Source of the DNA: Leucoraja ocellata
Taxonomy: Eukaryota
Direction: 5' to 3'
DNA: 64,000 nt
NCBI GenBank assembly: GCA_036785375.1
Contig: JAWMAR010000134.1
Coordinates: forward strand, 2,914,001 to 2,978,000
Shown: piece after piece, positions 10,601 to 46,600 of the stretch
Layout: every line of letters begins with the position of its first letter
How positions within the stretch are numbered: the first letter of the stretch is position 1
Position numbers and translations under genes: made by a program
Notes under the pieces: generated by a model
What the model was told of the DNA's origin: nothing
What the model saw: only the letters and a program-made list of their open reading frames with translations
Database searches by the model: none

Positions 10601-13600
10601 CGTTTCCTGCCTCTAGCATGTTCAAACCCTTAATCATATATGTTTCAATAAGATACCCTCTCATCCTTCTAAATTCCAGTGAATACAAGCCCAGTCGCTC
10701 CATTCTCTCAGCATATGACAGTCCCGCCATCCCGGGGATTAACCGTGTGAATCTACACTGTACTCCCTCAATAGCAAGAATGTCCTTCCTCAAATTAGGG
10801 GACCAAAACTCTACACAATACTCCAGGTGTGGTCTCACTAGGGTCCCGTACAACTGCAGAAGGACCTCTTTGCTCCTATACTCAACTCTTCTTGTTATGA
10901 AGGCCAACATGTCATTCGCTTTCTTCGCTGCCTGCTGTACGTGCATGCTTACTTTCCTTGACTGATGAGCAAGGACCCCCAGATCCCGTTGTACTTCCCC
11001 TTTTCCCAACCTGACACTATTTAGATAATAATCTGCCTTCCTGTTTTTACTACCAAAGTGGATAACCTCACATTTATCCACATTAAACTGCATCTGCCCA
11101 CTCACCCAACCTGTCCAAGTCACCTTGCATTCTCATAGCATTTTCCTCACAGTTCACACTGCCACACAGCTTTGTGTCATCTGCAAATTTGCTAATGTTA
11201 CTTTGAATCCCATCATCTAAATCATTGATGTATATTGTAAATAGCTGCAGTCCCAGCACCAATCCTTCCGGTACCCCACTCGTCACTACCTGCCATTCTG
11301 AAAGGGACCCGTTAATCCCTACTCTTTGTTTCCTGTCTGCCAACCAATTTTCTATCCATGTCAGCACTCTACCCACAATACCATGTGCCCTAATTTTGCC
11401 CACTAATCTCCTATGTAGGACCTTATCAAATGCTTTCTGAAAGTCCAGGTACACTACATCCACTGGCTCTCCCTTGTCCATTTTCCTAGTTACATCCTCA
11501 AAAAAGTCTAGAAGATTAGTCAAGCATGCTTTCCCCTTCATAAATCCATGCTAACTCGGACCGATCCTGTTACTGCTATCCAAATGTGCCGCTATTTCAT
11601 CTTTTATGATTGACTCCAGCATCTTCCCCCACTGATGTCAGGCTAGCTGGTCTATAATTCCCTGTTTTCTCTCTCCCGCCTTTCTTAAAAGATGGGATAA
11701 CATTAGCTACCCTCCAATCCACAGGAACTGATCCTTAATCTATCGAACATTGGAAAATGATCACCAATGCGTCCATGATTTCTAGAGCCACTTCCTTAAG
11801 GACTCTGACATGCAAACCATCAGGCCCTGGGGATTTATTAGCCTTCAGTCCCATCAGTCTAACCAACACCATTTCCTGCCTAATGTGGATTTCCTTCAGT
11901 TCCTCCGTCGCCCCAGATCCCCTGACCACTAGTACATCAGGAAGGTTGTTTGTGTCCTCCTTGGTGAAGATTGATCCAAAGTACCTGTTCAACTCATCTG
12001 CCATTTCTTTGTTCCCCATAATAAATTCACCTTTTTCAGTCTTCAAGGGTCCAACTTTGGTCTTAACTAATTTTTTCCTCTTCACATACCTAAAGAAGCT
12101 TTTACTCTCCTCCTTTATATTCATGCCTAGCTTACCTCATCTTTTCTCCCCGTATTGCCTTTTTAGTTCTCTTCTGTTGCTCTTTAAACATTATCCAATC
12201 CTCTTGCTTCCAGCTCATCTTTGCTGCATTGTACTTTTACTCTTCTTTTTTTATACTGTCCCTGACTTTCCTTGTCAGCCACGGTCGCCCCTTACTGCCC
12301 TTGTAATCTTTCTTCCTCTTTGGAATGACTGATCCTGCACTTTCTGTATTATTCCCAGAAATACCTGCCATTGTGTTCCACTGTCACCCCTGCTAGGGTA
12401 TCTTTCCAGTCAACTTTGGCCAGCTCTTCCCTCATGGCTCCTTAGTCCCTTTTGTTCAACTGTAACACTGACACCTCTGATTTACCCTTTTCCCTCTCAA
12501 TTGTAGATTAAAATTAACATATTATGGTCACTACCTCCTAATGGCTCCTTAACCTCAAGATCCCTTATCAAATCTTGTTCATTACACAACACTAAATCCT
12601 GAATTGCCTTCTCCCTGGTAGGCTCCAGTACAAGCTGCTCTAACAATCCATCATGGAGGCACTTCACAAATAGATTTCGTGGGGTCCAGTACCAACCTGA
12701 TTTTCCCAGTCTACCTGCATGTTGAAATGATTTTGTGGCTAATTTGAAGTATTGAGGGTCGTATGGTTTGCATGTTTTTTTTTTCAAAAGGCAATCAACA
12801 AAATAACCACTGCTGAGCAAAGCTGAAGAAACGGCAGCAGTGTGAATAGTAAAGCAGTGTAGCCTGATTAGTGTTTTTCTGGAGCATCGAGAAGTCTAGA
12901 ATGGTGATATCGATGTTAATATAAGAGTTGCTTTAATGATGACATCTCTAGAGTTCATCATTTTAAAGTTTGCAAATGCAACAAAACACCAAGCAATCAA
13001 CAGTAAAGACTAGAAATGGGTAAATGTGGGGCAGATTATATTTATGCATTGAAGTGGTACGTTTTGGAGTACAGATTTCATGAGCTAAATGATCACATTT
13101 TATGGAACTTTAATTTTGAATGCATATATACTCAACAAAGGTAAAATGTGAGATAGAGGGGAATTTGTTTGTGTAATAAATGGAATGCAATATATTAGAT
13201 TTTTTTTTAATTTAAAGTTTATTAAACATATATGCTCTCTGGATTAGTGGGTGGTGTTACACCCATTATTAGATGGCAGAGTTTTGATGAGGGGTATAAA
13301 GGGGGTTTAGTACACTTTCCTATGACGAGGAATCTTGTATGGAAAGAATCAAAGCTGAGAACTGGAGCAGAGGATTAAGGACGATTTAATGCAGGTTTTC
13401 AAAATCAGGGAAGGCTTTTCCGGGGGCAGGGTAGAATATAGTATAGTGTAGAGACACAGTCTGGAAACAGGCTCTTGAGCCTCCCGAATCTGTGCCAACC
13501 AACGATCACACGTACATTAGTTCTATTCTACACATTAGTGGCAATTTACAGAAGCCAATTGACCTACAAACCTGCATGTCTCTGGAGATGTGGGAGGAAA

Positions 13601-16600
13601 ACGAAGCACCCAAAGAAAACCCCCACTGTCACAGGGAGAATGTACAAACTCCATTCAGAAACACCCATAGTCAGGATCGAACCTGGGTCCTTGGTGCTGT
13701 AAGGCAGCAACTCTACTGGCTGCACCATTGGATGAACAATGAACAAGGGAGGACCTGGCGTGGGAGGGGGGGAAGAACCATGCAGGACCCAGAGTGGGGG
13801 GGGGGCAGAATAAAGGAGCCAGTGGAGGGGCATTTTGTAACTTTGTCAGTACCATATGTGGCGACTCTTTGTATGCCTTGGGTATGCAAGCAAAGAATGT
13901 CACTGTGCTTGTCACATATGACAATAAATTATTCCATTTCATCGTGCAGAAAGCTATCTGAATTGCCCCGCCCAAAAAGGTATGGAAATGAATCCAGCTG
14001 CAGCTTTCAGATAAGAATTGGGTAAACAGTTGAAAGGGGAAAAAAATACAGTGTGAGGGAAATGAGCGAGTTTGTGAGACATATTGGCTGCTCTTTTAAA
14101 GCACGGGTGCAGCATGAAGGGCTAAAGTGCCTGCATTGTATGATTTGTCCAAACCATACAGTCACCGTTGTTCAGGGTAAAGATCACTAACAATCTCACT
14201 AGACTGTCGTTCTTTGACAGTCAAACCCTCTGTATGGAGTTACTGTTTATACAGGGTAAGGGTTATTCAATGTAACTTAGAGTCAACAGTTTATTCAGGG
14301 TAACGGCTATATGTTCCCTCAGGGTAGGGGTTGTCCATTGTCTCTAGGCACATGGTTTAAACAAATGATTCTTGGCCTGCATACAGAATGGAATCGCTGT
14401 TAATTTAGGGTGCGGGTTATTCACCGTGCAGCGGGGAAGTGTTGCTAATGTTTCAGTTGTTTGGAAAGGTAACTCTTGTGTGTCTGTATCCTTTCATGGT
14501 AACGTATGAATAAATCTTCAGTCAAGCCAGATGAGCTCCTGTGTCAGCTTGTGTCTGAACAAATAGTTTGGACTTTACATCACCTTCTATCTACGCAGAA
14601 TGCATGCAGCAGACTGGTACACTCGCTGTGTCTCTCTCACTCCCATTCGTTGGTAGTCAGTGCTTGCCACACTCGTAGTGGAGTGTGAGGAGGGATTAGT
14701 TAGGAATGCAGCGAGTTGGAAGTTTGTGGCTGATCTGATCTGGATAAGGGCTGTGCATTGGAACTTTAGGGGGGGGGGTTTAAGCATGAGTGGAATCTCT
14801 GACAGCAGTGCTCCTTTCTGTGACAGCTGTGGGCTCACTGGGATCCCTGCCAACCCCGGGTACGGTGTTGGAGGAAATCCTTCTGAATTCTGCATTGAGA
14901 GGCGGAGGAAACACTAGCTCTGAAATCTTTAGGATCTGCTGCCTGGTTACACTGGAGCGTTGCTGAAAATATCACTGGCTGTGGCCCCAGCCAGCAATTC
15001 CCAGATGAGTGAGAGTGATCTCTGCAACAGCTGGGAAGTTGTGGCTCACAGGGAGAGAATTACTCATGGTGGGGGCTGGTTCCAGCACTTGTTTTGATCA
15101 AGCCTTGGACAATCACTGACCAGAGAGTTCCTTTTTGATTTCCTTCAATGCAGTCATTTTCCTGTGAATAATACACGACTATTGAGAGCCACAAGGATCT
15201 GAATAATTTGGCTGCTCGGCCATTTCTTAAGATCAAGGCTGATCCTTTCCCTTGGTGCTACTTTCCTGTACTCGCCCAAAAAGCTTGAATTACCTTAAGT
15301 TCTAAAAATATTGATCTCTGCCTTGAATATGTTGACCTTCCACAGTCCTCTTGCAGAGAATTCCAAAGATTTACTCGACCTCCTGGGAGGTAACATTTCT
15401 TGTCTGTCCTGAACAGATGATCCTTTATTCTGACAAAGACCACTGCTTCCAGACACTCCATCGCTGTTGTTAAACCATGTGAGAATTTTATGGGTCGCGT
15501 GTCATTCTTCCAAGCTTGAGTACAGAGCCCGTCTACTTCATCCTGCTTTGCATAACAAACCCACCAAACCACGCCATTAGCCAACTTTATTGCTTGTTGT
15601 TCCTACATATTAATTTTCAGTAATTCCTGTCAGATCTTTTGGGCTTTCTTGCCATTTGGGGAAAAAAACCCACTTCCTTTTTTTTTTTTAGCAACCAAAC
15701 TGAATCTTTTTCCCCACGTTTCCTTCGCCATGTCCTTATCTTTTCATATCCTCTGAAAGCCTGATGACACACACTGCTACCAAACTTTCTATTGTTAGTA
15801 AACTTGGATTTGTATTTGATTTTGCCTCATTGTGGATTCAACTGAGCAACGACACCGATTCCTGCAGCATTACCAAGCAATCAATTGATTCTGTTTTTTC
15901 TGCCCATTCACCAATCCTTGATGCATCCCAGTATGTTCTCCTCAATAGTGTTAACTTTTAATAAAAGCCTTCTGAAAGTCTAAATACACAGCATCAACTG
16001 GTTTCTCTTTGTCTCCTCTGCTATTTAAGTTCTCAAAATGCACTCTGAAAGATTTGACAAAACTGAATTCCCTTTCATAAATCCATGTTGACTCTGTTCA
16101 ATCCTGTTAATATTTTCTACGTGTCTTCTATATATACACTACTGTTCTCTTAATGTTAGGCACTCACTAATACAATTTAAAATACTGCATAAACTCTATT
16201 ATTCAAAGTCTAAATTGAATAAGATCTTCCCAAATGTCTCTCCTTTTTGTGATAAATGTCTCCTCCAAGAAGCAACCATAACCCATTATTTTGCAAGCTA
16301 GTCACTCTTTTTGCAGATCTTTCCGAATGCTTTCCTTGAGGTCCTATTTTATTTGACTGTCAGCCCTTTTGTAAGTTCCCTTCTGTCTCTCCCTGCCTTG
16401 TGTCTCTGCCTCATGAAGGATTATTATTGTCATGCTGACTGTTGGGTTCTAACCCAAGGCCTGGTTTGTAATTCGCAGATAGTAAGGCTATTGTGGATGG
16501 GAACCTGAAGCTTATCTTGGGACTGATCTGGACCCTTATCCTCCATTACTCCATCTCCATGCCTATGTGGGAGGATGAGGATGAAGAAGACATTAAGAAG

Positions 16601-19600: not shown

Positions 19601-22600
19601 ATGAGCACTGCAATTGGCCCTCGCCCTTTGTCATGGGTTCCTAAGGAAATGGTTCTGTTGCTCGAATGGTTGATCTGCATTCAATGCTGCTCCCTGTTCT
19701 TAGATTATAACTGGGGATGGGGAAACTATCAATCTTGTCTTTGAAGATCTATTTTGCACCCAGAATCCAAATGTTTTTGTTTTGGAGTTTGCTGGGAGGG
19801 TTTGCAGGTTTGTTTCCACATTTCCTCTTCCCACCAAATTGGAGGAAATAGTTTCCCAATACCTCGCTGACTTCCTGAATTATCACAAGCTCTATCAAAT
19901 TGTCAGATAATCTTCCAGACTTGACAACACAACCACTCAAGTCTGATTGCATTCACTGATTTGTGCACTGCATGAAAATGGTGCACATGGCTATGTGGAG
20001 AATTTGAGGGGTTTTGGGGGGAGATTGGAGCCACTGGTATACAGCAGTCAATTTTTTTTTCTTCTTTAATACTGTTACCTTTGTGCTTGCTTCCAGGTAA
20101 CAGTTTTATTTGCTGGACAGCAAATTGACAAAAGCCCTTTCAAAGTCCAGATTGGTATGGCTCTGGGTGATGCCAACAAGGTGACTGCTCAAGGTCCTGG
20201 TCTGGAGCTGAATGGGAATGTGGCCAACAAGCCAACGTACTTTGACATTTACACGGCAGGTGAGGAACAAAGTGATGTGTGGATCTCCACTGGAAATCGT
20301 GGTGAGGTGGGAGGAAAGAGAGGTCTGTAGCTTAGGAGAGATGGGGTGGCAATCTTTGGAATTTCTCAGACAACATTTGAAGTTTTTATTCAGAATGAAG
20401 ACAGTCAATTAAATGACATCTGAAAGTAAATTTAAAACCAACTTTTTAGAATAAATGCAAAGTGATGTTGCAAACAAAGAGACCTCTGGCCCAGTTCTTG
20501 GATCTGTACTTCTCTTCTAAAGCCTCCCTTAATTCTGCAGAGATCTGTACTGCTTCACCAGGGTGTTGTGTTCTTGTGTTTAGTATGGAGGCTGGAGAGG
20601 GGTTGTGTTGAATGACCAGATGTATCTAGGCAACCTCCACTGATTGCATTGCATTTTAATGTTGACTTGGAGTGAAGGATAAATTCCTTTCTCTGTAGGG
20701 ATGCCAGTGTGCTGTTGCTGTCACTGTACTGATGACGGCTCCTTTTTTCCCCCCCTCAGGTGCTGGGTCAGGAGATGTTGGAGTGGTCATTGTTGATCCC
20801 CAGGGACGGAGGGATACGGTGGAGGTGATTCTGGAGGATAAAGGAGACAATGTTCTCCGCTGTACATACAGACCTCTGCTTGAAGGTCCTCACACCGTCC
20901 ATGTTACTTTTGCTGGAACACCAATACCCAAAAGCCCCTTCACTGTGAACATCTCTGAAGGTATGGTCCAAACACTACATGGGCTCTTTGTGTAAGAAAC
21001 CTTTGCCTTTCTTTCATCCCCTATCTCCCCAAGAGACGAGCAAGCAAAGGGTGACAGGGGTAAGAAACCAAAGAAGAGGTTAAGAGATGGGGATGGTTTG
21101 AAGGTAACATAATGCAGGGAGAGTGAAGGAATGTGAATGTTTGGGAACAGAGGGGAGTGAGAATGATGCTCTGAGGTGAGGCAGGGAGAGTGAGTTTTTG
21201 TTGGAGGGGGTTTGTATCCTGGGCATGATAGAGTTTATGAATTGTAGGATTTGTGAAAGTAGCGAGAAATCGGGAGCGCAGGTGGGCTGTGAGGGAGGAT
21301 GGGAGCAATTGAAGGCTGACGTTTTGAAAACTGTGACATTGGATTTGATCCTTGTATTAATGTCAGAAATACCATTAATTGTGTATTTATTATTTCTCTT
21401 TTGCGAAAAGATCATCTTTTGAATGGATCGTGTGGGTCTACGCAACAACTCTCACAAGCTGTCTGTGTATGCACTTGTGTGTTAAAAAAACCAAAAAAAA
21501 CCCAACCCAAAACCTTCATTTCTAAAGCCCCCTTCATAACCCTGAGGTGCTCAAATGTTTTGCAACAAGTGAAGTCACTATTTCAAAAAGAGTCACGGTC
21601 GCCAATTGTGCACAGCATAACTAATATCTTTCATATACAAAGCTGAGGGAGTTAAAATATCAACCAGAATACCTGATGAGAGCGCTGGTTTTCTAACAGT
21701 GCTGTCAAACATTTTATTTTCTTGGGAATTAGGGTGATTTCTAGTGTGGAGCCTGAAGTTATTATATGACTAGGAATAGGCAGTGTTGTTGTCCTGGGCG
21801 ATGACGCTTCAGTTCAATAATTTAATTGAAATGTTCCATTGGTGATCTGATCCTGTGGTATCAGTTTTGTTTCTATGGTTAGACCCTAATTGCATGATTC
21901 TTCAGCACTGTTACCAAGCCAAATTATTTAAGATATAGTTCAAGTGTTCAAGTGAGTTTATTGTCATGTGTCCCTGATAAGACAATGAAATTCTTGCTTT
22001 GCTTCAGCACACAGAACATAGTAGGCATTTACTACAAAACAGATCAGTGTGTCCATATACCATAATATAAATATATACACAAATATATTCTGGGGAGGAA
22101 TTTTGTTTTGTTATCCATACAGATTCAGTTTAAGGTGTTAATTTCCTAGTCATGTCAACATTCGTTAAATGATTGCGGAGGTGGTGGGGCTGTAGTTAAT
22201 TAATTACTTGTGCCTGGCTGGAGATTTGGCTAAACAGACGTGAAAATGCTGCCTGCTTCCCTGTCAATTGACTAGTTTTATTTCCAGACATTACCTATTA
22301 AGCACTTGGCATTTGGGCAAGGTTGAGGACTGCAGAATGAGAGAGCATTTGTTTTTATTCTCTAAGAGTTGACCAGTTAACTTGGACTGTTGTCTTGTCC
22401 GATGAAGCCTGCCAAGAACAGCCAACAAATTACTTTAGTGATGAACAGATGCATCTCATTGGGAAGCTGTTATCAATTTACTCGTGTATATTGAGGAAAA
22501 TAAAACCACCTTTGTTTTGTGGAATAACTTGTCTTCATTGTGGGTTTTGGAAAGATAGAAGAATCTGACAATCTGGTCTGAGTGGTTGATCTTACTTTCT

Positions 22601-25600
22601 CTGGCTCTCATTTTTAAATCAAACCTTTGCAGATGCTCCCCTGGTTGTTGGGGGACACAAGATTAACAAAACGTGATGGGCCTGAAAGTTAGAAATGGCT
22701 AGTGCGTAGTTGTTGAATTAGCACGCGAATGGTTGTTTAATAAGGAAAGTTGGGTTTGGGCTGTTTCGCATGGGACAATAGTGAAGCTGCAAGAATGCTT
22801 GGACCATGGTTGCCTGGAGCTGGGTCCACTGTGTTGGTGGACATTTGGAGGTTGAGGCCATGGTGGTGATTTGAGAGCCAGGGCTGTGAAGGTGTTGCAG
22901 TAAAACTGAGATTGGGTGGGGTTTGGGCCACTGAGAATGGGACTGTCAGCTTGGAGGGAGCTCTGTGTTGCCACATCCCACTGTACTGCAGGAACGAGCC
23001 TGGATTTTGCCATTCACACCTTTTTACCTCCTTCTCTTCCTCATGATGCTCTTCCTCTGTGCTCGGACTGACCTCAGGAACCCCCCCTCTGGCCCAGGCT
23101 GCTGCACCAGTTCCAAGTATGATCGTTCCTCAGTCCATCCGCACCCCGCCGGCAGACAAGGCGAAGAAAGCGCCGCCCCCTCCTCCCAAACCCAAACGAG
23201 CACGTTAGTATTGGCCTGAACTGAGGGGCTGCCTCTGCTTGTGTCTGTACAAAGGGACGCTGGTTGGGCTTGTCTGTATGAGTGGTCATGATATCTGTAA
23301 ACACCTTGTCTGTCCAAGGGGCTGCTTGGGGGATGGTGGTTTTGCCTGCTCTGTGCATGAGGGTACTGGCTCCGAGGCCAGTTCAGGCCCTGGATGTCAC
23401 TGGCTCCGAGTCAGTGCAAGTCCTCTGACGGAAGAGGGTGGTTAGTGCTGCCTGTTCCTGGTCGTTACTAACTTGGTCATCAGCTGCTGTGCTGTGGTTC
23501 TAGGTGGGCACTTTGGCTGCCGTGTTCTGCTGGAATGGCTCTGCTCCTGCCGGGCCTTGAGTGGAATGGGTTGTGGATTACTGGTTAACTTTGGGTATAC
23601 TTTTCCAAAATGTATTTTCCTCCCACTGTTTATGCTCTTTTAGTTTGATCGAGACGTGATTAAAATCTTGCTCGGTTCTGCATAGCTTTCCTTTTGCAGA
23701 CAGGTAGGTGCTTTGCCATCTGTACGTGGAGAGGTCAGGCCCCCCACCCCCCCCCCCTCTCTCTCTCCTGGTCCATTGATCATGAGTGGCAATCCTTGCT
23801 GACTAGTATTACCAGTGTTCTGGGTACTTGATATCCCTCTGAGATTAGTGCGTGTAGTCTGAGGGACAGTCTTGGAGTGGACACGGCTGGTTTATTCGCT
23901 TGCTGAGCCAGCAGGTGGTTTGATTCCTCCTGTATCTGGAATGCTGGTAGATGTGGTTACTGTGATGTGACTGTGGACTGTCAGCTCTGGGTGGGCATCC
24001 TGATGCATTTGATGGGTTGACATTAATCTGACCCGCGTATTTCTTCCAGCATGCAATCCCAATGCGTGTCGAGCCTCGGGGAGAGGCCTGCAGCCCAAAG
24101 GGGTACGAGTCAAGGAAGTGACCGACTTCAAAGTCTTCACCAAAGGAGCTGGCACGGGGGAACTGAAGGTTGTCATCAAAGGACCCAGTAAGTTGGCTTG
24201 TAGGGACTGTGCATCTTAGCAGGCTTTTTGGACATTGGAACTTCAGGGCCATTGTATTCTTTTGTGGTGGAGATGTGCCTATCCTGGCTGGCATGTGTTA
24301 TGGAAGAAGGTGGTTGGGGGATGAGGGTGTGTGGCAAGTGATGGAATAAGTGTTCCCTGTTTGAACTTTGGGTTGGTTCCAGTCTGCTGTGGACATTCTC
24401 TTTATTATGCTCCACACCTCCCCTGTGCATTTTGCATTTGTCCTTTGATTGTATGCCGAGTCACTGTCCTGGTGAATGATTTGCATTGCACCAGGGCTGA
24501 GGCAGAAGAATTGGGACACCTGTGGGCAATGCAGCAATTGGCCAAAGTCTGTCACTGGTCTCGTTTCTTTCTTTCCAGAAGGCACAGAGGAACCCGTGAA
24601 GGTTCGTGACATTGGCGAGGGTACCTATGAATGTGAATATCACCCGATGATTGGAGGCAAATATGTGGTGACCATCACCTGGGGCGGTTTTGCTATTCCA
24701 AGAAGGTGAGTCACACTTAACCAAACATGTGGTTAATTCAATTCGGACATCAAATGAACAGTGTTACATTTTTGCTTAACATCCACAGAAAGGCCTCTCC
24801 CCATCCCTGGCTCCATCTCTGTTTGTCTGTCTTCCTCTGGGACCCTGTCAATCTTTCAGTTTCAAAGTATTTGACACACAAATAAATGTTCGGCATAACA
24901 CTAGGCGAGATTCCATGTTTGTGCTTTCAGTGTAATTTCAGGAATCTTTTGTACCAATGCTAATTGAATATGCAGTATCAGGAGATGTTGTTTTGGGTGT
25001 GTGTTCACTGATCTATGTGTTGTCCTCCAGCCCCTTCGAGGTGCAGGTTGGACCTGAAGCTGGTGCCCAGAAGGTACGAGCCTGGGGACCCGGACTGGAG
25101 ACTGGCGTTGTGGGCAAGTCAGCAGATTTTGTAGTGGAGGCCATTGGGACTGAAGTTGGGACTTTAGGTAAGTGTTGTCGCTTCCTGAGATATTGGAGAG
25201 GCTTCCCTTTTAAGGTCAACACTGGTTTGAAACCAATGTATTTACTGCATTTCCTCCCTGTTCAATCCGCATTCAAATGAGTGCCATAATGAGACTTGGA
25301 AATACATCAGGATGAGTTTTCTGTGCCTTGCCTGTCTTGGCGTGCGTGTCGTGTTTGTGTGAATGTCTAACGGCTTGTGGCCTCTTATCTCTGAGAATGA
25401 TTGGTTGTATCTTTCTTTGTCCAGGTTTCTCCATTGAAGGTCCCTCGCAGGCCAAGATCGAGTGTGATGATAAAGGGGATGGGTCGTGTGATGTGAGATA
25501 CTGGCCCACTGAGCCTGGTGATTATGCAGTGCATGTGATTTGTGATGATGAAGATATTAAAGATAGCCCTTTCATGGCTCACATCCTGCCGGCAAACAAT

Positions 25601-34600: not shown

Positions 34601-37600
34601 ATCCCATTTTGACTCTCATTTTCAGGGGTACTCCGGGAGGTCACCACGGAATTTACTGTGGACTGTCGATCTATCAACAAGACTGGTGGGAACCACATCA
34701 AGATTCGTATAGTTAATCCTTCTGGAGCCATGACTGACAGTTACATCAAAGACAATGTTGATGGCACCTATCATGTTGAGTACACAGCATATGAAGATGG
34801 TGAGTGATGTTTGCCATATCTGTTTGAAGTTTTACATGTTGCCTATTTTCTTGAAGAGACCTGGTAGTTTCCCAGTTATTCCGAGTTCCATTTCTGGCAA
34901 AGTAACCCCACCAGCCTTTTGCAAACCTGTAGGGATGTGGGGCATTTGTGGTGAAAGTTAATGGACTTGTAGAAAAGATTACCCAGTCTCTGTCATCCAG
35001 GCAGACAGATATTGGGGACTGATCCCTGACTCCTACATTTGTTGTTTCATGTTTTGATTCCTAATAAAAAGGATCTTGCCCTACCTTTCCTCCCTTGTGT
35101 TGCAAGATTCCCTGCTCTCTCCCAAGTGAAGATGATTCCAATATTTTTAACTTTGCAAGCAGTTCTTGAGAAATGTTGAGATAATTTGCCTAGATCATGG
35201 CTTAACATGGAACAGTCCTTCCATGGGATCATATTCCCCTCTGTCTGTTGACGGGCTCTCAGCTTTTGTTACAGCAGTGACTATTGCTGAAGCTTCCCAG
35301 GATCATACATTCCTTTGGTGTGATCAAGAGGCCCCTTTGTGGTATATTTTAATGTGTAAAATCTAGGGGGTATTAGGGAAAGCGATGTTGGTTTCTGGGC
35401 AGTTTTGAGATGGGGAGCATTTTGTTGACTGCCTGTTAAGAGGGCATGTTTTTATAGTTTAATTAACTGGACCAAGTGGGACCTGTTGGGTCCCTGTTAC
35501 ACGGGAGGCCTGGTCCCCCAATGCAACATGTTTCCCCCAACAAAATATTCCACCACTCACCCATAGCCCCCCATTGGAGGCCTGGTCATCCAACGCAACC
35601 CATTCCCCAACTCCATATTCCACCAGTCACCCATAGGCCCCAACTGCACAGTTGCGGCTCATTTCCCCTCACCCCCCAGCACTCCCTCCCCCTCTTCACC
35701 CTCCTTCTTTTTAAACTTTAAAAAAATCCAATTCCCTGCCCCTTGCCCGTTACAATGTTTTGGGGCGGCAAGTTGGAATTGGATTTTTTATAGTGAGAAG
35801 TAAAATTTTGCTTAAAAAAAAAAAAAATGTAAATGAGATCTCATTGTGGGGTGAAGTACTGCTCTCAGGCAGTTTATGTAAATGAGATCCCATTGTGATG
35901 TCATAGCTGCTAACTGCCACTGCAACGGTTTTTTTTCTCGAACTGGATTTTGTAATTTGAAAATATGAATAACTTGTAAAATATACTATCCATCTGAACA
36001 AAACTTGATAAAAACACACAACAGGCCAATTGTGAGTAAAGTGATCCAAAAATTGTGGCGCTATCATGTGCCATTTTGGCGTAGTTCTGGGAGCACATGG
36101 GCACACATGCAGACAGACAGAATCACAAACAAGATGAGAATTTTAGTAATATATACTAGACCAAGTGCAGATTCGTTGGGTCTGGTCCCCCAACGCTTCC
36201 CGTTCCTTACCCGTAGCCTCCAGCATGGTCCTCCAGCTCGAGCCGTTCCCGAACGGAAGATTCCAGCAATCCCCAGCCTCCCTCAGCAGTGGGCTTAAAA
36301 AAAAAATTCCAATTGCACCTGCGTGTTGCAATAGCAATTCGCCCTCCACCTCCTGTGAGATGAAAAGTTCAGAATGTGTCGCAACATTGTATCGATGTGT
36401 GTTGGAAGCTGGCAGAAATGATTTTAACAGTAAAAATCTTGTGAAAGTTGGCTTGTCTAAAGCTTTAATCGCGAATAACGTGAAATATAGGATGAAATCT
36501 TGAGTGAAGCTGATCACTGCTAGCCAAGCCATAGTGACGTCATCAGTTGAAGCTGGTTCTTTTAAATTCAAAGTATTATTTAAACTTTAATCAGTAATAA
36601 GTCGAGAAATAAAGCATAAAATGTTCAGTGAAGATGTTCTGTGCCTAGAGGGGAAAATGTGAATCAGAATATGCAAAAATCTTGTGAAAGTTGGCATTTT
36701 TAAAGCTTTAATTGCGAACAACGTGAAGTGTAGGATGAAATCTTGAGTGAAGCTGATCACTGCTAGCCGAGCTATTGTGACGTCATAAGTGAAAGCTGGT
36801 CATTTTAAATTCAAAGTCTTTAGATGTTTTTAAATTTCTTACTTTTAATCAGTAATACGTTGAGAAATAAAGCATAAAATGTTCAGATAAGGTGAACTCG
36901 GCCTAGAGGGGAAATATGTCAATCGGAATATGTAAAAATGTTATCGTTACCGCTTAGTGTTTTTGCGNNNNNNNNNNNNNNNNNNNNNNNNNNNNNNNNN
37001 NNNNNNNNNNNNNNNNNNNNNNNNNNNNNNNNNNNNNNNNNNNNNNNNNNNNNNNNNNNNNNNNNNNNNNNNNNNNNNNNNNNNNNNNNNNNNNNNNNNN
37101 NNNNTTTTAATAAGTATATGATTTTTTTCTCTTTCAGGAATGCATATGATTGAAGTGCTCTATGATGATGTCCTAATCCCCAAAAGTCCATTCCGAGTTG
37201 GAGTCACTGAAGGCTGTGATCCTAGCCGTGTCCGGGCGTATGGTCCAGGTCTGGATGGAGGTCTGGTGAACAAACCCAATAGGTTCACAGTGGAAACCAG
37301 GTGAGGTGCAGCCTTAAATAGTGGATAAATGTTTGGTCTTCACAGGGATACATTTAATTGCTTCCGTTGTCCACATGGACTGTCTTCTTGTGGGCATCTC
37401 TAACCATTGAATATCCAAAAGGAGTTTTTCCTATTATCTCAAAGAAATGAAAGATACCCTGGATTATTTTCTCATGTTTGCATTCCCCCGGGCCCTCTGG
37501 CTTTCGTGGACTATTCTTGGATCTTGTGTCATGAGGATACACCAATGTCCTGATGGCATTCCATCTGCACCATCCCAATGAGCACTAACCCGCTTTATAC

Positions 37601-43600: not shown

Positions 43601-46600
43601 CAGCCTATCCAGTATCTCCTTATGATTCAAGCCCTCCAGTCCTGGTTACATCCCTGTGAATCTTTTCAGAATTCTTTCCAGCTTGATAACATCCTTCCAA
43701 TAGCTGGGTGACCAGAACTGCACATAATACTCCAAGTATGGTTCACCAACATCTTGTACAGTTTCCCCATCCCTGAAGTTAGGCTCTCAGGCTTGTCCTC
43801 GTAGCCCTTCTGAAATGCTCACTATTAGCCACCGTCTAGTTTTTAAAATGTAATGAATACCTTTTATGGTGGAAATAAGGGAAACTGTTGCAAGTAGGGA
43901 GGCCCGAGTGGGAATTGAGTTCTGTTTTAGGTATGAATCAATGGTGGTTAGCAGTGTATGAGGGAAGATTTGGGATATGGCGGGAGAATGGGGAGGGGTT
44001 ACAATCTTGCTCTAACTTTAATGTTCATTGTTCTAGACTACCATCAGATGGAATAGTTTCTTGTAGTCTAACCAACCAAATCCTTCAATCCACTTGCACA
44101 TCTAATAATGAATAACACTTTAATCACCTATATTTGAGAGAATACTATCTGTAAAGCAGCTCCAAACCAATGTAAACACTTTCTTGGGTATCGTGTCCGG
44201 ACTGATTTGGATTTTTTGCTTTGGTCTGACAATCTCTCCGTTTAGTTCTGATGTAATATGCTGTTTAGTGTTAAAGTTCATATGAGGTAGCAGGTGACTA
44301 TTCTATCAACCTTTTGTGGTGACTTTTATCTGCAATGGTTTAGTGATTCTGCATCCACGCAATACAAAATCCCTTAAATTCAATCAGAATATTAATCTGT
44401 GAAGCCATGTTCCCAATAACTGGACTCTGTTTAGAATTTTAATTTTAAAAAAAAATCAAAGAATTGGAAGAACATGGGGAGAAGATCTAACATGTGGAGA
44501 ACAAGTCATTTGTGATGTATGGCCTCTGTTCTGACCCATGTCCCTCTGCGCCTCCATGTTCCGAGTCCAGTTAAATGGATGTCCACATCATTTTCCCCAT
44601 CCCCAACTCTGGCCAGAACTTCCCAGACCATTACAAACTAACGTCACCTGAATATCACCATGGAAAGAGGTGTTCAGAGGAATACTGGCTTATGGGAGTG
44701 CAGTTACCGTCCCCAAACCAGCTCCATTCTCTTGTCGCATTGTCACTGTGCTTCTCCCTTGCCTGTTTTGAAACTTTTCGGATGCAAGTTTTGGGAGTTT
44801 TGTGTTGGACTTGTTTAACTTTTAGCTTGCTCCAATCATAGGCCTGTGATGCCATCCCCATCATTGAGGAGCCCTGCGATACCCTGCAGCTACACCAACC
44901 CTATGTGCCTTGCCGTGCTGGCTATCCACCACACTGGGTATAAGATTTAACCACCAACTACTCTCTTCAAGCAGGACTTCCATTCTCTCCTTCCTTCTCC
45001 TCAACCTATTTTTCAGTTTCCATGATGCCATCTCTAATCTTTTAATCCTTCTGTCCTGTTTTTGGTCATTTTGTCATTTTATTGCATTCGGCTTGTTCTC
45101 GCGCTCATAGTCTGTCTTTCCTCAATCCCTCGCTGATTCTTGAATCTACTGGTCTTTAACCACAGACTGGATGGAGTCCTGTCTTGCCTCTTTTGTATGC
45201 ATCAATGCTTCTGTTGGATTTTTTGGTAGCTGGTTCTCTTCCTACTTTTACAAATATCATAGTAGAATAAATTAAGCTCCTGGTAAATCTCTATATGATT
45301 TTTGGACATTGTGATCAAAAGGAGAATTCTCTGAATGAAGTTTGGTCGTGTTGCTGATGGAGTTTCCATACTTGGCTGGCTGCATGTGATCAGGACGCTC
45401 AGCTGAAATAATTTAATAAACATAAATCTACCATCATTGTATGGAAGAAAGAGATGATGCCTTTCTGCACCTGGGATTAATTTGACCCAGATGGACTTGG
45501 AGGCCCCTCCATCAGCTCTTTAAATTTGCCACCGATATCTACCCTTTTTTCTCTGGGGTAGTTTAAAAGTCAATGTACAGATTTACCAAGGTTCAGTTTG
45601 TTCTGTTCAGTTTGTTTTGTTTGGCCATTTGTAGTGATTAGTAGATTTATAATCACAAGAATCTGTTTACATTCCCCAAACGAGCACTGAGATGGCTAGT
45701 TGGCTCCGGAGCCTCTAGTTGATCCGCAGAAACTCTGGGCAGAGGTGGGACATTAAAGAAAGGACCACAAATGTTAAATCCCTGTCTCTCTCTGTCCCAT
45801 GGCTGCTTTCCTCCTTGCTGTATGTTGTAGGTGGGGAGAAGTGAATTTTCGAGGTTGGATGACCCGAGCTTAAGTAAAAAGGATGAGTGAATCCAGTCAC
45901 CTCATGGTTGTTCCTGTGTTGATTGGCAAGCAGGTGATCAATGGGTAGGAATAGTGTCCAGAAATTCAACCAATCCAGTAGCTTGTAACAGAGGGTCCTG
46001 TCCGGAATTGTCCATTTGCTGTGCTTAAAGCTGGTCAACTGCAGAACTTTAGTTCTCCAATGACAGGAATGTTACCTGATCCCTGTGCAGGTTGCTGCCT
46101 ATAGTCTCACTACTCCTCCTGGTCTAGCCCTATTTGCAGCTCACCCGATCATTCTTGCATAGATCCTCGCTCTGCTGAACTGACCCAGAGTTAATCCAGA
46201 TACTTAATGAAATGCCCTGATAATAGCCTGTTGCAAATCTTCTAGTTTGTTCTTTATTCTTCTTGCTCTCCTGCTGGTCTTTAAGCTCTAGCTATGGTTT
46301 TGGTCATTTTGCAGGCCACGGAGGAGTCTGTTGTCCCGGTTGATGTTATGGAACATGGTCTCCGGCCATTCAACCTGGTCATTCCCTTCACTGTGCAGAA
46401 GGGAGAAATCACAGGTAAGTTTTAAAATCTTCCTTCTGTGAAGTATTCTTCGCACTGGCACTGTCTGTTGCAGCACAGTAGTCTTGCTTCTTGTTCTGAA
46501 ATATTCTCGTGTCCCAGGCGAAGTCCGGATGCCATCTGGTAAAACTGGCCATCCAAACATAACTGACAACAAGGATGGGACTGTCACGGTGAAATATGCT

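What the first reader, a model, noticed from the sequence alone, without database searches (positions are those of the whole stretch)
23078..23203. Hidden proline-rich cassette exon between Ig2 and Ig3, absent from the canonical mammalian 48-exon FLNC
Seen: inside the 3.1-kb intron 8 is a 126-nt GC-rich segment with a long CU-rich tract, a cag acceptor and a gttagt donor. It is phase 1-1 like the host intron and open in the FLNC frame. It adds (G)[41 protein letters not shown](P). The ORF track shows only other frames here. Known: PPKPKR fits the class II SH3-ligand consensus PxxPxR, PPPPP can bind WW/EVH1/profilin, and TP is a proline-directed kinase site. Inference: a switchable disordered extra hinge with an adaptor-docking module in rod 1. 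I recall a similar insert in predicted teleost flnc isoforms; if that is right, it is an ancient gnathostome exon lost or silenced in mammals, and I know of no functional study of it.
Basis: partly seen in the sequence, partly recalled or inferred. Interest (0 to 1): 0.8.

Follow-up and report, generated by a model that had tools for sequence, protein, structure and literature searches.

The report
Ancient optional filamin-C proline-rich exon
A skate's gene for the muscle scaffold protein filamin C carries an optional exon, spliced in or out and kept from sharks to lizards, that adds a predicted floppy proline-rich linker likely used as a docking site; it is probably the long ancestor of a small mouse exon that is lost in a myotonic dystrophy model.

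Summary
The exon is real. 23078-23203 is a 126-nt, phase 1-1, open exon in FLNC intron 8. Spliced contigs include it in 2 of 8 runs laid and skip it in 7 of 8; both inclusion runs hold both forms. It is not hidden: NCBI models already carry it (Leucoraja erinacea, 40 of 41 residues identical). Homologous inserts occur from chimaera through teleosts and lungfish to amphibians and squamates (114 distinct sequences). The N-terminal part drifts; PQSxRTPP and PPxPPKP[RK][RK] are conserved (PxxPx[RK] in 108 of 115). AlphaFold leaves it unstructured between folded Ig2 and Ig3. 'Lost in mammals' is contradicted: mouse has a translated 63-nt Flnc exon 8a in the same intron and phase, about 10% included in muscle and lost in a DM1 model (PMC10770608). 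Orthology is likely (0.65) but rests on position, phase and four residues. Best mechanism: a splicing-switched, phospho-tunable SH3-docking linker beside the CAP/SORBS1-binding Ig2 (0.5; binding untested). Ten paper searches found no study of the long exon. The scan's earlier notes hold nothing on it.

The parts
20760..20960 (+). FLNC coding exon 8 (Ig2), upstream host exon, phase-1 donor
   Evidence: tblastn with Leucoraja FLNC; splice joints
23034..23077 (+). Extended polypyrimidine tract and CAG acceptor; tract weaker next to the AG
   Evidence: sequence; 29 of 40 pyrimidines at -44 to -5; under 14 of 20 at -24 to -5
23078..23203 (+). 126-nt in-frame cassette exon adding 42 residues between Ig2 and Ig3
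   Evidence: joints in X1 and X3, skipping in 7 of 8 runs; homologues
23080..23112 (+). Variable N-terminal Pro/Ala-rich spacer part of the insert
   Evidence: mean commonest-residue share 0.46 over 10 columns; one of the two changes in runs X1/X3 lies here
23113..23154 (+). Conserved core [13 protein letters not shown] with a proline-directed TP site
   Evidence: mean share 0.78 over 13 columns; [ST]P after PQ in 103 of 115, shuffles mean 11.3
23173..23202 (+). Conserved C-terminal polyproline/basic motif with class II SH3-ligand pattern PxxPx[RK]
   Evidence: mean share 0.88 over 10 columns; PxxPx[RK] in 108 of 115 (shuffles mean 55.8, max 70)
23204..23503 (+). Donor GTTAGT and downstream intron with one TGCATG (23354), one ACTAAC (23467) and 10 YGCY; candidate RBFOX, QKI and MBNL sites (motif names recalled), not enriched after allowing for many tests
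   Evidence: P=0.14, 0.04 and 0.16 against 300 dinucleotide shuffles, 21 tests
24050..24187 (+). FLNC coding exon 9 (start of Ig3), downstream host exon

Best explanation
This is an alternatively spliced 126-nt exon of filamin C, conserved from chimaera to lizards, that inserts a 42-residue linker between Ig domains 2 and 3; the linker is predicted to be disordered and likely works as a splicing-switched docking site for an SH3-domain adaptor, likely tuned by phosphorylation of its conserved Thr-Pro. Shown: the exon, its frame, inclusion and skipping in the same runs, deep conservation concentrated in two short motifs. Predicted: disorder, with Ig2 and Ig3 folding normally on either side. Inferred: (1) inclusion is tissue- or stage-regulated, probably muscle-biased and MBNL-dependent, by transfer from mouse exon 8a; (2) PP-x-PPKP[RK][RK] binds an SH3 domain in the class II orientation, the first candidate being CAP/SORBS1 or a relative, since CAP is listed as binding the adjacent Ig2; (3) PQSxRTPP is a kinase site that modulates this; (4) mouse exon 8a is the shortened orthologue.
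For: Both forms in runs X1 and X3; a sister sample of X1 (X2, same organism label and study) joins across the exon. Both forms annotated in 12 of 14 species checked. Length held near 41-42 residues and motifs conserved over 114 distinct inserts plus the window; strict P[PS]KP[RK][RK] in 76 of 115 against a shuffle mean of 0.2; the second teleost type changes R to G yet keeps PxxPxR. pLDDT under 50 and no secondary structure for residues 270-310 of the Heptranchias homologue, with strands on both sides. CAP (SORBS1, ponsin) is tabulated as binding FLNC R2 (PMC7216277, passage). Mouse exon 8a: same intron, 63 nt, junction peptide VAPPCNPNACR detected in 5 of 5 wild-type and 0 of 5 DM1 samples (PMC10770608). 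[KR]x[AP]PP occurs inside 108 of 115 inserts and [KR]VAPP exactly in 7 of 115, all frogs.
Against: No binding or phosphorylation was tested. A loose PxxPx[RK] arises in about half of shuffled inserts (mean 55.8 of 115), so the pattern alone is cheap. CAP binds canonical FLNC without this exon (the original paper was not held). Tissues of the runs are unknown, and contigs show presence, not absence or level. Splicing-factor motifs are not enriched convincingly. Inclusion joints rest on 27-28 letters on one side, and X1 shows only the upstream joint. The mouse exon is half as long, only four of its residues could be read, and its last base gives Pro as in elasmobranchs while 103 of 114 other inserts end in Thr. 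No turtle, crocodilian, bird or mammal was among the best 120 of 703 cluster representatives, and 3 of 3 parsed bird fragments skip. Low pLDDT from a 47-row alignment is not proof of disorder.
Confidence: 0.5

Rival explanations
1. The insert is mainly a mechanical spacer, a third optional hinge that uncouples the actin-binding domain with Ig1-2 from the Ig3-5 block; the conserved residues serve chain stiffness, solubility or exon definition rather than a partner.
For: Length is tightly held; predicted disorder. The junction tolerates unrelated inserts in an amphioxus model (about 84 residues, P0227) and a cat FLNB model (33 residues, P0139). FLNC already tunes flexibility by splicing hinge 1 (PMC7216277, PMC7318287; passages).
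Against: A plain spacer does not explain near-invariant positions (P 115, K 113, P 113, Q 108 of 115) beside a freely drifting N-terminal third.
Confidence: 0.2
2. The working part is the PQSxRTPP core: a proline-directed phosphosite that recruits a WW-type reader or isomerase, or marks FLNC for cleavage or turnover; the C-terminal prolines are secondary.
For: Core conserved at 0.78, RTPP in 67 of 115 and [ST]P in 103 of 115. If mouse 8a ends at the mid-insert K-V-A-P, 21 codons would cover this core and omit the SH3 motif, so the core would be what mammals kept.
Against: The C-terminal motif is the more conserved part (0.88). Several teleosts lose RT or TPP but keep PPKPRR. The mouse alignment is unproven.
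Confidence: 0.2
3. The exon is real but its mammalian look-alike, exon 8a, arose independently in the same intron, and the long exon was lost on the mammalian line.
For: Half the length; anchored at the 3' junction the four known mouse residues do not put basic residues where the long exon has them. No amniote other than squamates was seen with the insert. New exons at this junction appear in other models.
Against: Same gene, intron and phase; proline-rich end preceded by an inferred Lys/Arg; exact match to a frog segment; reported conservation across mammals. This rival concerns history and is compatible with the best mechanism.
Confidence: 0.35
4. A pseudo-exon or splicing noise.
For: Joints come from contigs with short anchors and guessed RNA status; weak acceptor.
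Against: Frame and motifs conserved across jawed vertebrates; both forms annotated in 12 of 14 species.
Confidence: 0.01

Closest known systems
Predicted FLNC isoforms in NCBI/UniRef (e.g. Leucoraja erinacea XP_055509199.1, Danio rerio XP_009298480.1, Xenopus tropicalis isoform X2, Anolis carolinensis XP_062839468.1)
   Same: The same insert at the same junction; 40 of 41 residues identical in L. erinacea.
   Different: Automatic annotation only; no description or functional study found in 10 paper searches.
Mouse Flnc cryptic exon 8a (PMC10770608)
   Same: Same gene, between exons 8 and 9, in frame, phase 1-1 by its junction peptide, optional, translated, ends in a proline-rich stretch.
   Different: 63 nt against 126 nt; about 10% inclusion in mouse muscle; the authors describe conservation within mammals only.
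FLNC hinge 1 (exon 31) and the 82-residue Ig20 insertion (PMC7216277, PMC7318287)
   Same: Non-Ig segments in the FLNC rod; hinge 1 is optional by splicing and the Ig20 insertion carries partner and kinase sites.
   Different: Other positions and unrelated sequence; hinge 1 is removed in muscle, whereas mouse 8a is included in healthy muscle. The review passages read name no insert between R2 and R3.
Tissue-regulated cassette exons encoding disordered segments with short binding motifs (general class; recalled)
   Same: In frame, optional, predicted disordered, motif-bearing.
   Different: No difference in kind; notable only for its age and its host gene.
FLNA poison exon N (PMC8652244, PMC13542418; passages)
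   Same: A regulated cassette in a filamin paralogue; I recall it lying in the equivalent intron, which my calls did not confirm.
   Different: It adds a stop and triggers decay in neurons; this exon is frame-preserving and coding.

Membership tests
Filamin C gene (host) | CH domains plus Ig repeats, orthology to annotated FLNC | tested here: met
   43 colinear tblastn hits at 80% or more to Leucoraja FLNC, mean 96% identity
Cassette exon | Canonical splice sites, frame-preserving, no stop | tested here: met
Cassette exon | Both inclusion and skipping transcripts exist | tested here: met
   X1 and X3 hold both forms (short anchors); 12 of 14 species have both forms annotated
Tissue-regulated exon | Inclusion differs by tissue or stage | tested here: inconclusive
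   Inclusion in 2 of 8 runs; tissues unknown, contigs drop rare forms
MBNL/RBFOX/QKI target exon | Enriched, conserved intronic motifs and response to factor loss | tested here: inconclusive
   Motifs present downstream but not enriched beyond multiple testing; DM1 response shown for mouse 8a only
Class II SH3 ligand | PxxPx[RK] pattern, conserved in place | tested here: met
   108 of 115; strict form 76 of 115; consensus recalled
Class II SH3 ligand | Lies in an accessible disordered region | tested here: met
   predicted only: pLDDT under 50 for residues 270-310
Class II SH3 ligand | Binds an SH3 domain | not tested
Proline-directed kinase site | Conserved [ST]P that is phosphorylated | not testable with these tools
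   [ST]P conserved in 103 of 115; phosphorylation unknown
Orthologue of mouse Flnc exon 8a | Same intron and phase | tested here: met
   Arcs between exons 8 and 9, 63 nt, junction peptide
Orthologue of mouse Flnc exon 8a | Sequence homology along the exon | tested here: inconclusive
   Only four residues known; they match a mid-insert frog segment (7 of 115) but not the 3' end in register
Filamin Ig repeat or any Pfam family (insert itself) | Profile match | tested here: not met
   0 Pfam families at E<=1; no strands predicted

The most novel reading that the evidence does not exclude
The muscle exon 8a that mice lose in myotonic dystrophy is the cut-down remnant of a jawed-vertebrate FLNC exon: fish, amphibians and squamates keep a two-part module (kinase site plus SH3 dock) next to the CAP/SORBS1-binding Ig2, while mammals kept the kinase-site core and ended the exon just before the SH3 motif, rewiring how filamin C is anchored at costameres and Z-discs.
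Probability: 0.3. Interest if true: 0.68.

Novelty: new member of a known kind. Interest (0 to 1): 0.46.

Why it matters
FLNC is a major myopathy and cardiomyopathy gene, usually treated as having two isoforms that differ by hinge 1 (PMC7318287). A second, ancient optional segment in rod 1 means that zebrafish and Xenopus FLNC models express a motif-bearing isoform that human reference transcripts lack. It gives the unexplained mouse exon 8a an evolutionary context and a testable function, and it points to an unannotated coding stretch in human intron 8 (reported as a shorter in-frame version in primates) where variants would be filed as intronic. No solved structure among 24 matches covers Ig2 or the Ig2-Ig3 junction as its best stretch. 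The exon itself is an ordinary kind of element and is already in automatic annotations, which limits the surprise.

Tried and rejected
No run was on record as RNA in the run search ('no RNA holder listed'); spliced contigs were used instead, and contig depths were not taken as inclusion levels. Runs without cover over the exon (X2, X4, X8, X12, X13, X24) are not evidence of absence. Mammalian sequence could not be obtained: the representative search with P0002 gave no mammalian FLNC spanning the junction among 11 of 150 hits parsed, and 10 of those hits looked up by name were snake, bird, teleost, amphioxus, lamprey or unnamed. The nr label 'Mustela' on P0053 and P0065 sits on tilapia sequences and was rejected as mammalian evidence. 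The lamprey fragment could not be parsed at the junction, so the age beyond jawed vertebrates is open. A structured-RNA explanation: one Rfam match at E 0.26, 18 bits against a cut-off of 50, rejected. An intramolecular beta-strand pairing of the conserved core with Ig1-5 was not seen in the model. A second copy in the genome: none, the peptide matches only its own place; the one paralogue found has a 700-nt intron with no candidate exon by my scan. ESM Atlas: no usable hit. Earlier scan notes: nothing by sequence, two unrelated notes by words. 'FLNC' in PMC10705357 and PMC11614907 means full-length non-chimeric reads; 'exon 8a' in 10.1101/2024.10.05.616792 and PMC13478325 refers to other genes. 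Not held: the 2016 Flna poison-exon paper, the 2007 CAP-FLNC paper and two filamin-evolution papers. Supplements of PMC11092782 could not be read and might list this exon. No dN/dS was run, as only proteins were held; in the laid runs 6 of 6 changes checked in exons 8-9 were silent and 2 of 2 in the cassette changed a residue, too few to interpret.

Full report
Observation. The window holds a filamin C gene on the + strand: 43 colinear tblastn hits at 80% identity or more to Leucoraja erinacea FLNC, mean 96%, so the source is a skate close to that species. Exon 8 (20760-20960) and exon 9 (24050-24187) flank a 3,089-nt intron. Within it, 23078-23203 has CAG before and GTTAGT after, 64% GC and an open frame giving the stated peptide. 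The junction codons are Gly and Pro with the exon and Ala without it (one search had exon 9 off by one base and its last two junction and variant read-outs were discarded). The pyrimidine tract is long but set back from the AG.

Splicing. The run search listed 24 runs, none on record as RNA. I laid 8 of the 18 listed as guessed RNA. Their contigs join exons at GT..AG across several introns, so they behave as spliced mRNA. The joint from exon 8 to the cassette appears in X1 and X3, and from the cassette to exon 9 in X3, where one 184-nt contig holds the whole exon with 28 letters on either side. The skipping joint appears in X1, X3, X13, X8, X2, X4 and X12, 7 of 8; X24 shows no joint. X2 shares organism label and study with X1 but joins across the exon. 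Limits: anchors of 27-28 letters are under the tool's 31-letter bar, no DNA control was laid, tissues are unknown, contigs give neither level nor absence, and inclusion was not seen in the two laid runs with the label of the best DNA holders.

Conservation. The 41-residue peptide alone found Heptranchias perlo filamin C. Region searches then found the insert in sharks, rays, chimaera, bichir, sturgeon, paddlefish, gar, many teleosts (two sequence types, probably the two teleost paralogues), lungfish, caecilians, salamanders, frogs and squamates. Of 224 stored proteins, 172 had a linker of 4-69 residues at the Ig2-Ig3 junction, 44 had three or fewer and 8 were unparsed or longer; these were selected by the insert, so this is no frequency. 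After dropping duplicates and the unrelated FLNB insert, 114 distinct inserts were aligned with the window's. The N-terminal third drifts (mean commonest-residue share 0.46), the core ending in PQSxRTPP holds 0.78 and the C-terminal proline/basic motif 0.88. PxxPx[RK] is in 108 of 115 (shuffles mean 55.8, max 70), the strict P[PS]KP[RK][RK] in 76 of 115 (mean 0.2), and [ST]P after PQ in 103 of 115 (mean 11.3); sequences are related, so these counts are not independent. Both forms are annotated in 12 of 14 species checked; Ambystoma showed only inclusion (4 listed) and Nothobranchius only skipping (2 listed). No turtle, crocodilian, bird or mammal was among the best 120 of 703 representatives, and 3 of 3 parsed bird fragments skip; this reflects annotated representatives only.

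Structure. AlphaFold2 on the 554-residue Heptranchias fragment with 47 rows gave mean pLDDT 72, folded Ig domains, and pLDDT under 50 with no secondary structure for residues 270-310, the insert. The insert matches no Pfam family. Among 24 solved structures matched, the best stretches end at Ig1 or begin at Ig3, apart from weak paralogous-repeat matches.

Mammals. [quoted passage not shown] It calls the exon highly conserved in mammals, with a shorter in-frame version in primates. This contradicts plain loss in mammals. The peptide shows a phase-1 end giving Pro, and a tryptic design implies Lys or Arg before it. [KR]VAPP occurs inside 7 of 115 inserts, all frogs, and [KR]x[AP]PP in 108 of 115, immediately before the class II motif. 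Twenty-one codons ending there would span the conserved core and omit the SH3 motif. Anchored at the 3' junction instead, the mouse residues fit poorly. I put orthology at 0.65 and the truncation-before-motif reading at 0.3; neither is shown.

Mechanism. Most likely (0.5) the exon is a splicing switch that adds a disordered linker bearing an SH3 dock and a proline-directed phosphosite to rod 1. CAP/SORBS1 is tabulated as binding FLNC R2 (PMC7216277, passage; the original paper was not held), which makes it the first candidate partner; its SH3 domains are evident from the listing of PMC2777869 (passages). Regulation by MBNL is inferred from the mouse DM1 result; in the window one TGCATG, one ACTAAC and ten YGCY lie within 300 nt downstream, none convincing over 21 tests. 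Rivals: a pure spacer (0.2), a phospho-core function (0.2), noise (0.01); and, on history, independent origin of mouse 8a (0.35).

Novelty. The exon is in automatic annotations, and a probable mammalian counterpart is in print. Ten full-text searches of the held library found no paper on the long exon or linking it to mouse 8a; subscription journals are mostly missing, four relevant papers were not held, and unread supplements (for example of PMC11092782) may list it. Other papers seen as passages only: PMC7318287, PMC13542418 and PMC8652244, PMC6052891. SH3, MBNL, RBFOX and QKI consensus patterns are recalled. Verdict: a real, ancient, functionally unstudied cassette exon of an ordinary kind in a disease gene; interest 0.46.

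Noticed in passing
window 44842-44937: 96-nt (32-residue) exon at the hinge-1 position; elasmobranch isoforms differ by 32 residues independently of the 42-residue insert (e.g. 2757, 2725, 2683 in Chiloscyllium punctatum), so it is probably optional here too.
   Followed up: partly
window 23111-23203: A possible in-frame internal acceptor would give a 93-nt exon lacking the variable N-terminal part; no joint to it was seen.
   Followed up: partly
window 21946-22086: High-copy repeat in intron 8, covered by many short contigs in all 8 runs laid; SINE-like by behaviour.
   Followed up: no
window 11086-11550 and 15261-15602, minus strand: Open stretches resembling LINE reverse-transcriptase fragments in intron 1 (family recognised from recall).
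   Followed up: no
window 36968-37104: 137 N in an intron.
   Followed up: no
P0227 (Branchiostoma lanceolatum) and P0139 (Prionailurus filamin-B model): Unrelated inserts of about 84 and 33 residues at the same Ig2-Ig3 junction; the other member of the P0139 cluster lacks it, so that one may be a model artefact.
   Followed up: partly
L001 (G000:C1451, minus strand, about 164480-165410): A filamin paralogue (A or B, not assigned) with an intron at the same junction, about 700 nt, mostly a short tandem repeat, with no candidate cassette.
   Followed up: partly
window 23204-24049: The intron below the exon is 846 nt; the mouse arc below exon 8a spans a coordinate difference of 846 as well. Treated as coincidence.
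   Followed up: no
P0053, P0065: Tilapia filamin-C proteins carry an nr label naming a mammal; a database mislabel.
   Followed up: yes
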